A DNA stretch of 64,000 nucleotides from Perna viridis (taxonomy: Eukaryota): the NCBI GenBank assembly GCA_037379345.1, contig CM074517.1, positions 14,880,001-14,944,000 on the forward strand, given 5' to 3'. Both the position numbers and the translations under genes were made by a program. The notes beneath the pieces were generated by a model. That model did no database searches, had not been told where the DNA came from, and saw only the letters and a program-made list of their open reading frames with translations. Shown piece after piece: positions 44,813 through 55,466 of this stretch (position 1 is its first letter; each line of letters opens with the position of its first letter).

Positions 44813-47800
44813 TCACAATCAAAAATTAATTGAAGTTCATTGTTTGAGTTTTTCAACCTTTTTTTCTCTTTGATCAATTTCCAGTTTTCGCTTACTATAG
44901 TAATACAATCGTGGTCAAGCCATTTGTTTTGATCTCACTAAGTGGTCAAACTATTTTGATACAGTTATTGTTACTCGTTTTACAATCTGATATGTTTTAG
45001 CTTTATTTATTCATTCTCATTATTTCGTTTTAATTTTCGTTTTTGGTTATATATTTGTTTTTACCAAACCAGTAGGGTGTCTTATCAAAATTATGGAATC
45101 CACTTCATGGTATTGTTTTAAAAGGAAACATTCATACATGTTTTATAAAACATACATGTAATTTTCTTTTTGACTTTGATTAGTTTGTTTGTCTGTTGTT
45201 GTTAGCATTTTTGTGCTTGTTTTGTTCCGTTTTGTTTTTGTCTTGTCTTTTCTTGTGCAGATTATTTTTCCTAAATACATTTTCAACGTAACTGGCCACT
45301 ACAATTTTCTCGTAAATTTGATCAAATTAATGGCTTAAGTATTGTTGCATATATTTGAATTTATATCTACAAAACGCATTAAGTGTCAGTCTCTGTAAGA
45401 GTCCGGCAGTGGGTGAAACATGTTATGAAAAAAAACATCATTTTGATAGCGTGATTTTATTATTTGTACCATCAGAATAAAGGAAAAAGGACAATATTTT
45501 CCATATAATGTTAGTGCATTGAATTATGATTTCATTAAAATACACTGAAAATGAACATTTCAAGGGCAGACAACTCGGTCAAAAACCTCATTTTCTAATG
45601 TTCTATTGAAAAATTTGTGAGCAAAGCCAGTATTGCAGAGTTTAAATAATGGTATTTTCAAATACAGAAAGCATCCTTAAGTGATATTACATTGTCAGAT
45701 CGATGGGGTTTTAACATGCATGTTTCTGATTTTTTCCATTTTGCCAGATTCTTACAAACACTTACACTTAAGATGTGTGCATAAAGGGAGGTAATCAAAT
45801 AATTACTTTGGTATACATGTAGTAGTTCATAAATTATTTTCCGTACATCGAAATTATGAAAGGTATGGGTTTTGTTCAACCAATCAGAAGAGAGTTTTCG
45901 TGACGTTAATGGCGGTTGTAGCTAAGGGGAGGACAATGTGGTCGACGCTGTCAAATTTGTTCGATATCCCATCCATCACCTCAAGTCTTGTCGTGTCTTT
46001 GGTGTCCCAGTTCCATTTTAATCTATCAAAGAATGAACCGCTATTATCTAATTCGTAATTGAGGCAACAATGAAAAAACCAAAATATATCTGTGTGCCTT
46101 TGAGTTGTCTAAGTTTGCTCTTTGAGCGAGTTATGCTAGCATTTTTAAACATTTTTGTATTTTTTATGCTGACAGTTGGTTAGTTGAACAAATGTTTTCA
46201 ATGGTTTCTTTTGGCATTATCAAAATCAAAGCGAGCATGTATATCAACGTAAAGAAGCCATGTATTATTTATACTGTACAATTTACCCCCAATGAAGGAG
46301 AAAAAAGAATAGATTTAGGGTGTTCTTAAGGATGTAAAGATATCCACTCTCTCCATCGTTGTAAATATTACGTTAGAATATATTTAACCACCCAAGATCA
46401 TGAGGGAAAACATGTCCTCCAAAATATTAGAATCTGATTGCATTTTATATGTATTCGCATTTTCGGAATGACACCAAATTGTATCAATAAAAAGAAAAGA
46501 AAAGTCAAGAAAGAAAATTTAGAGCTTTAGCAAAATTTTACTTTTGTATTTTTAGCCATGTTCTCTTAATTTATTGTAATATGACCATACGGCAACAGTG
46601 TTGTTTTCCTATAAATTTTCTATAGAAATGGCACAATTATCTTTAAAAATTGGCACTTCATCGGTACAAGCTTTACAGATTGCTTTAGCTAAGCGTTGTC
46701 CACTTTGTTTTGTAGGTGATGTGACAGATAGCGTGAGGAAAACAGAAATTAAACTCGTGTCTAGTGCAAATTTATGTGGTTAAAGGGTCAGTCCGTTCGA
46801 ATTTGAGTGGTCATTTTAATGGTCAATTAGAACATAAAGATGGCCGGTGTTTGACACCTTGAATGTGTAGTTTATCTACTTTATCTATTGGTTAATTGAG
46901 TTGTAAAGTACAAATAATATTTGTATATTTGACATCAAAGAAATTCTCTTTTGCCGTCGGAATATAAGTCCTATATTTGGCCTTGTCAGTTCCTCGTATT
47001 TTGTAATAAGAACGAACGAACTGCGAATAACATAAATATCAAGATGATTTTCGACCATGTTGTGATTTTTTGATGCAGATTCGGGAGGGTCTTTTTATTT
47101 ATCTAATTTATGTTTGGAAAATTTGTTATAAAATTTTTCATGTTACTTGCAATTTTATATTTGTTCGTTTTTTTTTTTGGTTGTTGTTTTGTTTGTTTGT
47201 TTGTTTTTTCATATAATTCTATAAAATATCATAAATTAATTGAAGTATAATATATGCCCCTGTTTAGCAATGTGCACTAAAACTAGAAGAATTATAAATT
47301 ATTTGTAAAATAATATTATAATTTTGGTGTATGTTTAGACTGCCCGCTTGAAAATCTTTATAATTGAATAAAAAAAATGCTTTTACCACACAAGTTGAAG
47401 ACAAACCGGGGATGTAACCCTTCTTTCAACTTGTTAGCAAGACTATAGTTACAATAGCAAATTTATACGACTTCAAATAAATTTAAATAATCTAAAACGC
47501 GAGGATTTGGGCTTAGATTATTGAATTGGAAAGATTAGCTTTTGATAATTCTTTGTGTTTTTGTGGTAGACTGCATCTGTGTATACTTCATATGTTTAGT
47601 ATGTACTTTGATTATTAAAATTAATATGTAAACAACTTGAAAAAAATCTACATTTATCTGCTGATATTTTGTGATATTTGATTAAATCATAGATTGTCTT
47701 CAATGATATTCAAACTTGTCAAACAATACGTGATTTTCTAGGTGTGAGAATTGTCCGAAAATAAGATAGATGTTGCTTTTTTTATTTAGATAAAAAAATC

Positions 47801-50800: not shown

Positions 50801-51384
50801 TAGATAAAAAGGTCAAGCTTTTAAACAGCAGGGTTCAACTTAAAGATCAGTCAAACAGCTTTTAATAAACGACCATCTTTTGCCTAATAGATTAAGTTAT
50901 TTTTTCTGTCAAAATTAAACTGCGAAGTAATCTTTAATATTGCCGCGTACGTCGACTAACAACACATTTGCAGATTAATATAAATTATTAACTAACGTAA
51001 AAATCCCATTGGCCACCCCAGAACGTAAAAAAGCCTCACATTATGATCAAATAAACTACATTGTGACGAATAAGTTATACTTCAGTTGATTTGTCATTTT
51101 CTATCTTATGGCAGTTTGCAAGACTAATGTGGCCTAGATTCTCATTAATTTATCCACTTGAACATGCAGAAATATTTGCATATTGTTTTTTCTTCTTCTT
51201 TTTAACTGCATATATTTTAAAGTAGTATCATAAAGCAGCCCCATTAGCACTTCTTAGACAATAACTTTTCTTTTTAGCGCTTTCTTGTATTTCAATATGT
51301 AAGCATAGAACTAATATATTTCCTTGTGTCGTTCTGTTATATTTCTCTATTTCTGAATGAGAGGGAGAGAGTATCTATCTCTGA

Positions 51385-51454
51385 CGTCTTTACCCTGTAG
51401 AACCGAGCGAGTGATTGCATAGGACACTGTTCGATTCTAAGGGTCAACACGACG
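51385..51454 (+). ncRNA. mir-10: miR-10-family microRNA precursor (divergent paralogue)
   Basis: The 5p arm TTACCCTGTAGAACCGAGCGAGTG (51390-51413) carries the miR-10 signature TACCCTGTAGA. It pairs with the 3p arm CACTGTTCGATTCTAAGGGTCAA (51425-51447) around an 11-nt loop. There is a basal stem CGTC/GACG and a CNNC motif (CAAC) at 51466-51469. It is on the same strand as, and next to, a Hox gene. Confidence 0.9.
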
Positions 51455-52122
51455 GGGTAAAAGTTCAACTTTTATTCAATTTTTTTCCCTTTTTCTGAGC
51501 TTTCAATTCTTTGCTTCTAATGCTTTCTACAGATTTGCGTACTTCATGTATTAACTTTTTATTTTTTATTCTATAATTAATTTATTTATTTTTCTTCTTT
51601 ATGTACTTTTTTAAAATTTTATTTTTGACATATTTCATTATCATTAATTTTATTTTTTATGTAGGTTGTCCATAGTTTACATTATCCATATTTATCATTT
51701 GTTAATTAAAAAGGCTTTTCAAAATTTGTTTTCTTCTATTATGGTAGACATTAAAATTGAAACAATAACAATCAGGTTTTGTATTGTTTCAGTCACCTTT
51801 GACTCATGATGGTATGTAAATACCACTGATAATCTCGCTTTCAGCATCAAATTTCATAACAATGGCAAGCATACTCTTTGAACTTGAAGGCTAATGCTTT
51901 TCCGTGAATATCCATGGAAACGAACCTAACTCAAGCAATTATTTGAATTACTCATTAACAATGATATTCTGTATCAAAGTATAGTTTATTGGAGCAGGAA
52001 ACAATTCAACTGAGTATTATTTATTTATATATATATTTTTTAAATTCAAACTAATTTCGATCTCTCTTAAAATCGATATGCAATCAGTGAAGTTACATAT
52101 AAGTAATAAATATATATTAATA

Positions 52123-54799: not shown

Positions 54800-54952
54800 T
54801 TTGATTGGCTAATCGTACACTACTCTGATTTCTATGCAAATGATTTATTTTGGCCGACATCGAGTATGGACGAACACAAATCATAGGTTATTTTATTGTG
54901 TAAGGTCATGAAGTGAGTAAAATAAGAAAAATAAGTTGAAAATTGTGGAAAA
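54800..54952 (+). promoter_or_regulatory. Candidate Hox proximal promoter / 5' leader
   Basis: Inverted CCAAT box TGATTGGCT at 54802-54810, octamer ATGCAAAT at 54834-54841 overlapping TGATTTAT at 54841-54848, all within about 150 nt of the ATG. The TSS is unknown. Confidence 0.5.
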
Positions 54953-55466
54953 ATGAACTCCTATTATCCGGCATCGTTTTTCGCGCAGTATTCTTCTGAC
55001 AATCCTCATATGTCACATAATGTGGGCTATAATTCGAACAATTTTGGATTTTTAGCATCTCGTTTTGCAGATCAGTTATCGGCATATCATAACAATAATT
55101 TTAATTCCGAACACCATCGTTTGACAAACGGATATTCTGCGTATCACCATGACTCTCATTCAAGACAAAATTCGTCAGGAAATTCGAGCGAACACGGAGG
55201 TAGACAGAATTTCCAACCTCCCCCAGCGCATCAATCCGAGGACAATTTAGTGTCAAGATCCTTTAGTAATTGTAGTACAGAGAATTGGAGTCCACCACCC
55301 CACGGAGCTCAGTCTGGATCGCCAGATTCTTTACATAACAGTACCAGTCCATACTCCAACAATGCTGATTCCAACTGCCCTCTCATGTTACAGAAAAATT
55401 TAAAATCCGATCAGAGTTCAGGGAGTGAACCGTCAACGCCCTTTTATCCCTGGATGGGAATTGTTG
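54953..55466 (+). CDS. Lox2: Exon 1 of a central-class Hox gene, Lox2/Lox4 (Ubx/abd-A-related) group, most likely Lox2; homeobox exon not found in window
   Basis: The N-terminus MNSYY matches the Hox SSYF-type motif (Ubx MNSYF). The body is His/Ser/Asn/Pro-rich. The hexapeptide FYPWM is followed by GIV-G, interrupted by a canonical phase-1 donor G|GTGAGT at 55466/55467, the usual Hox intron position. The Hox exon call is strong (~0.95). Lox2 versus Lox4 rests on recalled hexapeptide context and needs the homeodomain. Confidence 0.85.

What the first reader, a model, noticed from the sequence alone, without database searches (positions are those of the whole stretch)
51381..51470. Extra miR-10 paralogue 3.5 kb upstream of a UbdA-class Hox gene
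Canonical miR-10 lies beside Hox4/Dfd. This hairpin lies beside Lox2/Lox4 and has a distinct 3' half (GAGCGAGUG instead of GAAUUUGU). The extra U at 51390 may shift the seed to UACCCUG. It resembles the additional miR-10 paralogues recalled from annelids and molluscs. It occupies the central/posterior part of the cluster, where arthropods have iab-4/iab-8 and vertebrates have miR-196, so it could be a convergent lophotrochozoan Hox-repressing miRNA (inference). ORF-based annotation would miss it.
Basis: partly seen in the sequence, partly recalled or inferred. Interest (0 to 1): 0.7.

Follow-up and report, generated by a model that had tools for sequence, protein, structure and literature searches.

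The report
Known Hox microRNA Mir-10-P5 beside Lox4
This is a copy of an already catalogued microRNA gene, Mir-10-P5, lying between two body-patterning Hox genes, and two other Hox genes of the cluster carry matching sites through which it likely dampens them.

Summary
The hairpin is real (stem 51379-51457, + strand, single copy). Its 5' arm, 51390-51413, is identical at 24 of 24 letters to the commonest read of oyster cgi-miR-10a and at 23 of 24 to Platynereis Mir-10-P5. It is therefore the known lophotrochozoan paralogue Mir-10-P5. The one-base seed shift is documented: 99.65% of oyster reads start at the base matching 51390. The parallel with miR-196/iab-4 is also in print (PMC12257675, PMC3394115). 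One correction: the hairpin lies between the two UbdA-class genes, not at the central/posterior boundary; the paralogue beside the posterior genes here is miR-1991. The new detail concerns targets. Lox5 and Scr each carry, behind the stop codon, an 8-mer seed site plus 8 or 7 letters complementary to the P5-specific 3' half. They are the only two such sites among 44 non-self seed matches in 764 kb. The Lox5 site was not seen in 48 other Lox5 groups, which favour the unshifted seed. No small-RNA run of this species was available. The scan noted a similar gene upstream of Lox4 in another genome (e1-7275731).

The parts
51379..51457 (+). Primary-microRNA stem-loop (lower stem plus precursor) of Mir-10-P5
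   Evidence: Fold and pair probabilities; z-scores; Rfam mir-10 E 2e-7
51390..51413 (+). Predicted mature 5p arm; nt 2-8 seed = 51391-51397, shifted one base against canonical miR-10
   Evidence: 24 of 24 letters match the commonest oyster cgi-miR-10a read; 23 of 24 match Pdu-Mir-10-P5_5p; compared by eye
51414..51426 (+). Predicted apical loop removed by Dicer (13 nt)
   Evidence: Inferred from the fold and 2-nt overhang geometry
51427..51448 (+). Predicted star (3p) arm, 22 nt
   Evidence: Inferred from the fold. It lines up end to end with the longest oyster star read (9 of 34 star reads), 16 of 22 letters alike by eye
51451..51453 (+). Lower-stem pair/mismatch/pair element (partner 51383-51385), mGHG-like register for a cut at 51390; third letter is C, so not the canonical motif
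   Evidence: motif definition from PMC7668254 and PMC7174388 passages
51466..51469 (+). CNNC motif 18 nt after the predicted 3' cut
   Evidence: 16-18 nt range from PMC7174388 passage
54854..55466 (+). Exon 1 of the Lox4-type Hox gene (CDS from 54953; hexapeptide FYPWM from 55442); intron runs out of the window, homeobox at G000:C7:14945975
   Evidence: spliced contigs in X1, X2, X9; stranded raw reads in X6-X8

Best explanation
The hairpin at 51379-51457 carries the arm of the known microRNA Mir-10-P5 and lies between the Lox2 and Lox4 Hox genes; it is predicted to be cut at 51390 and to likely repress the more anterior Hox genes Lox5 and Scr. Shown: sequence, fold, single copy, position in the cluster, identity with expressed orthologues, and the two target-like sites. 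Inferred from orthologues and stem geometry (about 0.9): transcription on the Hox strand, Drosha cuts at 51389|51390 and 51448|51449, loading of the 5p arm, and a seed moved by one base. Inferred from sequence only (about 0.5): the seed pairs with an 8-mer 31 nt behind the Lox5 stop and 749 nt behind the Scr stop, while the P5-specific 3' half pairs upstream of each. This would make P5, rather than canonical miR-10 or miR-1991, the preferred regulator, lowering anterior Hox output where Lox4 is active.
For: Identity. Shift: oyster 5p reads start at the shifted base in 215,771 of 216,523, at the canonical base in 325, one base earlier in 303; PMC12257675 states the shift for P5. Geometry: lower-stem pair/mismatch/pair at -7..-5 and CNNC at +18 for a 51390 start. 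Other paralogues accounted for: canonical miR-10 at C7:15174924 between Scr and Dfd, miR-100 beside let-7 on C5, miR-1991 between Post1 and Post2. Synteny: in Capitella, P5 falls about 1-32 kb 5' of lox4 by my arithmetic on coordinates. Targets: the shifted 7-mer occurs 4 times in 8 x 3 kb Hox tail windows against 0.72 expected, 0 antisense; 2 of 420 same-composition words do as well. Lox5 and Scr are the only 2 of 44 non-self seed matches in 764 kb with a run of 7 or more letters to the 3' half; random flanks gave such runs in 1 of 5000 and 12 of 5000. The Lox5-type composite occurs twice in 723 Mb, the gene itself and Lox5; control 0. An oyster study lists a HoxB7-like gene among predicted Cgi-Mir-10-P5 targets.
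Against: No read shows the 5' end or the star in this species. The shifted 7-mer is also the 7mer-A1 site of canonical miR-10, and both 8-mers also fit miR-1991, so seed enrichment alone cannot be assigned to P5. The composite patterns were drawn from the sites after the fact; the Scr-type pattern has 7 matches against 2 control. Energy-based nulls are weaker: Lox5 30 and 23 of 5000, Scr 656 and 133 of 5000. In 48 other Lox5 groups (65 metagenome loci; 33 of 48 with 500 nt or more behind the stop), the shifted 8-mer occurs 0 times, the shifted 7-mer 3 times (control mean 2.34) and the 3'-half word 0 times. The unshifted 7-mer occurs 30 times in 22 of 48, best of 420 words. The closest relative, L113, has a shifted 7-mer at +443 without 3' pairing. 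Lox5 pairing covers nt 15-22, only half of the usual nt 13-16 region.
Confidence: 0.85

Rival explanations
1. Same gene, but functionally a dosage back-up of the miR-10 family: Hox tails respond to the shared seed core and the 3' pairing at Lox5 and Scr is incidental.
For: One 9-letter site serves P5 (8-mer), miR-1991 (8-mer) and P1 (7mer-A1) at both Lox5 and Scr. Other Lox5 loci favour the unshifted seed and lack the 3'-half word. In oyster P1 has about ten times more reads than P5 (2,011,064 against 216,523). PMC3394115 raises the dosage idea.
Against: Two independent sites with 8- and 7-letter runs to the P5-specific half. The arm is unchanged between oyster and this genome and differs by one letter in an annelid, which implies selection on the 3' half.
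Confidence: 0.35
2. An iab-4/iab-8-like locus read from both strands, giving an antisense microRNA as well.
For: The minus strand folds as well (z -3.31) and scores 29 bits with Rfam mir-10. Platynereis Mir-10-P4-1 is expressed from both strands.
Against: Canonical miR-10 and miR-100 also score on their minus strands, so this follows from hairpin symmetry. No antisense product is listed for P5 among the 9 Platynereis Mir-10 rows.
Confidence: 0.04
3. A silent or decaying copy of P5 in this lineage.
For: No direct expression data for the arm in this species.
Against: The arm is identical to the expressed oyster read. The five differences in one other sequenced allele (contig of X5) all lie outside 51390-51448. 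Stem and processing landmarks are intact.
Confidence: 0.03

Closest known systems
Mir-10-P5 (MirGeneDB name; Pdu-Mir-10-P5, Cte-, Lgi-, Cgi-Mir-10-P5; oyster cgi-miR-10a of PMC4138081, homologue listed as cte-miR-10b)
   Same: Arm identical at 24 of 24 (oyster read) and 23 of 24 (Platynereis); same strand as the Hox genes; posterior to canonical miR-10; shifted start.
   Different: Star arm differs at 6 of 22 letters from oyster; loop unrelated. That cgi-miR-10a equals Cgi-Mir-10-P5 is my inference from the Platynereis sequence; I did not see the Cgi-Mir-10-P5 sequence itself.
Mir-10-P1 (canonical miR-10)
   Same: First 11 letters after the extra U are shared; same cluster and strand.
   Different: Lies between Scr and Dfd, 243 kb away; different 3' half; unshifted seed; flanks show no meaningful similarity.
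miR-1991 (Mir-10-P6 in the supplement naming of PMC12257675)
   Same: Hox-linked, seed-shifted lophotrochozoan miR-10 paralogue.
   Different: A separate gene here, at C7:48762422 between Post1 and Post2, 34 Mb away; Rfam mir-1991 70.4 bits, above the cut-off.
Arthropod iab-4/iab-8 and vertebrate miR-196
   Same: Hox-embedded microRNAs upstream of a central/posterior gene, with predicted or shown Hox targets.
   Different: No sequence relation; they lie between abd-A and Abd-B and between Hox9 and Hox10, whereas P5 lies between the two PG8 genes.

Membership tests
MIR-10 family | Arm and fold match the family model | tested here: met
   Rfam RF00104 E 2e-7, 38.9 bits; below the gathering score of 47.5, as is this genome's canonical miR-10
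Bona fide microRNA (criteria recalled) | Hairpin with 16 or more pairs between the arms and a loop of 8 nt or more | tested here: met
   20 of 24 arm bases paired; 13-nt predicted loop
Bona fide microRNA (criteria recalled) | Reads from both arms, 2-nt overhangs and a uniform 5' end in this species | not testable with these tools
   No small-RNA library among the 24 runs listed; met in oyster and Platynereis
Mir-10-P5 | Mature sequence | tested here: met
   23 of 24 to Pdu-Mir-10-P5_5p; 24 of 24 to the oyster read
Mir-10-P5 | 5' end one base upstream of the ancestral cut | tested here: inconclusive
   Shown in oyster reads; here only stem geometry agrees
Mir-10-P5 | In the Hox cluster, on the Hox strand, posterior to P1 and 5' of Lox4 | tested here: met
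   Cluster map; Capitella position by arithmetic; order P1-P5-P6 in Lottia and Platynereis. The names Lox4 and Lox2 rest on gene order and recalled residues; UbdA class
Mir-10-P1 | Between Dfd and Scr with the canonical arm | tested here: not met
   That gene exists separately
miR-1991 | Between Post1 and Post2; Rfam RF03858 | tested here: not met
   That gene exists separately; no RF03858 hit at the finding
iab-4/miR-196-like positional class | Between the last central gene and the posterior genes | tested here: not met
   Lies between the two PG8 genes against the positions
iab-4/miR-196-like positional class | Represses Hox genes lying anterior to it | tested here: inconclusive
   Sites behind Lox5 and Scr, none behind Lox2, Post1 or Post2 in 3-kb windows; no functional test; not conserved in other Lox5 loci

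The most novel reading that the evidence does not exclude
Mir-10-P5 has its own Hox targets: Lox5 and Scr are selected through pairing to the paralogue-specific 3' half on top of a seed site shared by three paralogues. This is a concrete posterior-prevalence circuit built from a duplicated miR-10, in a cluster that lacks Antp and miR-993 and is split from its Post genes.
Probability: 0.45. Interest if true: 0.55.

Novelty: already known. Interest (0 to 1): 0.3.

Why it matters
The gene itself is an orthologue of a catalogued microRNA, and its seed shift and the parallel with miR-196/iab-4 are published, so it needs annotation rather than discovery. What could matter is the pair of target sites. 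They give a direct test of why near-identical miR-10 paralogues keep invariant but different 3' halves, and of whether lophotrochozoans use a Hox-embedded microRNA to lower more anterior Hox genes, as vertebrates and flies do.

Tried and rejected
Expression search: no RNA holder listed and no small-RNA library among 24 runs, which is no evidence either way. Raw mRNA reads X6-X8 (19-25% of each run read) cover Lox4 exon 1 on the expected strand and give depth 0 to 0.13 in the hairpin bin; such libraries lose small RNAs, so I did not use this. Contigs of two runs guessed to be RNA begin at 51457 (X1) and 51450 (X2), just behind the predicted 3' cut at 51448, while a contig of X5 crosses the hairpin; X9 of the same study has none. 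This would fit a Drosha 3' fragment, but it is one study, contigs cannot show ends and RNA is a guess, so it is not counted. No contig bridges hairpin and Lox4, so a shared transcript is neither shown nor excluded.

The Lox4 tail site at +2539 probably lies past the main transcript end (contig lengths put the end near +2480 to +2505, beside AATAAA at +2486). The two Lox4 sites at +1487 and +1540 fit miR-1991 better (8-mers) than P5 (7mer-A1).

The 11-letter seed pattern over the genome was uninformative (169 matches against 181 control); the 10 other listed C7 matches did not fold as microRNA hairpins. No recent duplication: flanks of P5, P1 and miR-1991 share nothing meaningful. The promoter scan is bacterial and irrelevant.

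Literature: the literal arm sequence gave 0 papers; the six-term search gave 0; 'Lox5' with 'miR-10' gave 10 listings, none on targeting by title or abstract start. PMC4613790 is not held. Figure 5C of PMC12257675 is not held, so I cannot say which paralogue its arrow marks, nor see its map for molluscs. bioRxiv supplements were not available. The earlier-findings look-up by place gave nothing.

Full report
Observation. The arm at 51390-51413 and its stem (51379-51457, + strand) are as described. Rfam mir-10 matches at E 2e-7, 38.9 bits, under the gathering score, which is why the whole-window scan found nothing. The locus is single-copy in G000.

Surroundings. A homeodomain search of G000 and translation of 764 kb of contig C7 give eight Hox genes on the + strand: Lox2, Lox4, Lox5, Scr, Dfd, Hox3, Hox2, Hox1. 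The names are recalled from diagnostic residues and agree with the Capitella order; the UbdA class of the two neighbours is supported. The hairpin lies 54 kb behind the Lox2 stop and 3.5 kb before the Lox4 ATG (54953). Lox4 exon 1 is spliced to its homeobox exon in contigs of X1, X2 and X9. Canonical miR-10 lies between Scr and Dfd. miR-100 lies beside let-7 on C5. miR-1991 lies between Post1 and Post2, 34 Mb from Lox2. Of 65 matches to the seed core in the 764 kb, only 2 fold as microRNA-like hairpins: this one and canonical miR-10.

Identity. In supplement 3 of PMC12257675, Pdu-Mir-10-P5_5p (3405 mature, 7 star reads; origin given as Lophotrochozoa) matches 51390-51413 at 23 of 24 letters. 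Oyster cgi-miR-10a-5p in supplement 2 of PMC4138081 matches at 23 of 23, and its commonest read (123,805 reads) at 24 of 24. These comparisons were made by eye. Cgi-Mir-10-P5 makes up 1.26% of oyster microRNA expression in PMC7488030. Coordinates of Capitella P1 and P5 with the gene spacings of PMC2603591 put P5 about 1-32 kb 5' of lox4; this is my arithmetic and assumes P1 lies between Dfd and Scr. Paralogue numbers differ between the text and the supplement of PMC12257675 for P6-P8, but P5 is consistent.

Processing. In oyster, 215,771 of 216,523 5p reads (99.65%) start at the base matching 51390, 325 at the canonical base and 303 one base earlier. The longest star read (9 of 34) ends at the base matching 51448. 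Here a 51390 start gives a 59-nt precursor, a pair/mismatch/pair element at -7..-5 and CNNC at +18; a 51391 start moves both by one (definitions from passages of PMC7174388 and PMC7668254). The element is not the canonical mGHG and there is no basal UG, so this is agreement, not proof. No small-RNA run of this species was listed.

Targets. In 3-kb windows behind the stops of the eight cluster genes, the shifted 7-mer occurs 4 times (Lox4, Lox5, Scr, Hox3) against 0.72 expected and 0 antisense; 2 of 420 same-composition words do as well. None lies behind Lox2, Post1 or Post2. This word is also the 7mer-A1 site of canonical miR-10, so it does not single out P5. The two 8-mers do: Lox5 +31 pairs also with nt 15-22 and Scr +749 with nt 12-18 of the P5 arm. 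Among 46 seed matches in 764 kb (2 are the microRNA genes read backwards), these are the only two with a run of 7 or more; random flanks reached such runs in 1 and 12 of 5000. The Lox5-type composite has 2 matches in the genome, the gene itself and Lox5 (control 0). PMC7488030 lists a HoxB7-like gene among predicted P5 targets in oyster; which Hox gene this is I did not determine.

Against the target reading. The composites were defined after seeing the sites; the Scr-type one has 7 matches against 2 control. Energy nulls are 30 and 23 of 5000 for Lox5, and 656 and 133 of 5000 for Scr. Both 8-mers also fit miR-1991. A scan of metagenome contigs for Lox5 gave 65 loci, 48 distinct peptides (longest locus of each kept; 33 with 500 nt or more behind the stop). 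The shifted 8-mer occurs in 0 of 48, the shifted 7-mer in 3 (control mean 2.34) and the 3'-half word in none, while the unshifted 7-mer occurs 30 times in 22 of 48, best of 420 words. Many of these loci are close to each other and not independent, and their hosts were not determined. So Lox5 looks like a widespread miR-10-family target, but the P5-specific site is not shown to be conserved.

What is in print. Section 14 of PMC12257675 (read whole; same passage in the preprint) describes P5 as a lophotrochozoan paralogue with a one-base shift and calls the placing of miR-10 copies near the miR-196 and Iab sites genomic parallelism. PMC3394115 (section 5, part 1 of 2) made both points in 2012. 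PMC4138081 (passages) places miR-1991 between the Post genes. From 10.1101/058669 I saw passages only. I found no paper on P5 sites in Lox5 or Scr in searches; the library lacks most subscription journals.

Verdict. A real, known microRNA gene. The target sites are a modest, testable addition. Novelty: already known; interest 0.3.

Noticed in passing
G000:C7:14946244-15045121 (L002-L011, L022): No Antp homeobox between Lox4 and Lox5, and none elsewhere among the 7 best genome matches to the Lox5 homeodomain; Antp appears lost or unassembled.
   Followed up: partly
G000:C7:15214727-15383083 (L039-L055): No miR-993/Mir-10-P4 hairpin found between Dfd and Hox3; the two oyster lists searched also lack it.
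   Followed up: partly
L083, L081, L085 (G000:C7:48.64-48.85 Mb): Post1 (-), miR-1991 (+) and Post2 (+) sit together 34 Mb from Lox2 on the same contig, so the Hox cluster is split.
   Followed up: yes
L002, Lox4 tail +1487 and +1540: Two 8-mer sites for miR-1991, 53 nt apart, inside the transcribed tail; Lox5 and Scr sites also fit miR-1991.
   Followed up: partly
L103-L167: The unshifted miR-10 7-mer is the most enriched of 420 same-composition words behind Lox5 stops (30 sites in 22 of 48 groups); some carry pairing to nt 13-18 or 16-19 shared by P5 and the annelid P7.
   Followed up: partly
window 51450-51629: Short contigs in two runs guessed to be RNA begin just behind the predicted Drosha 3' cut; one study only.
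   Followed up: partly
window 51382 and 51463: Another allele (X5; 51463 also X2) differs in the lower stem and the 3' flank but not in either arm.
   Followed up: no
window 45335-46001: A repeat element with very many RNA reads from other loci on both strands.
   Followed up: no
window 9590-9680 (C7:14889590, +): A long stable hairpin (-47 kcal/mol over 87 nt) between Lox2 and the microRNA, with no Rfam hit at gathering score; possibly a transposon inverted repeat.
   Followed up: no
L072: miR-100 and let-7 lie about 550 nt apart on C5; miR-125 was not seen in this 3-kb locus.
   Followed up: no
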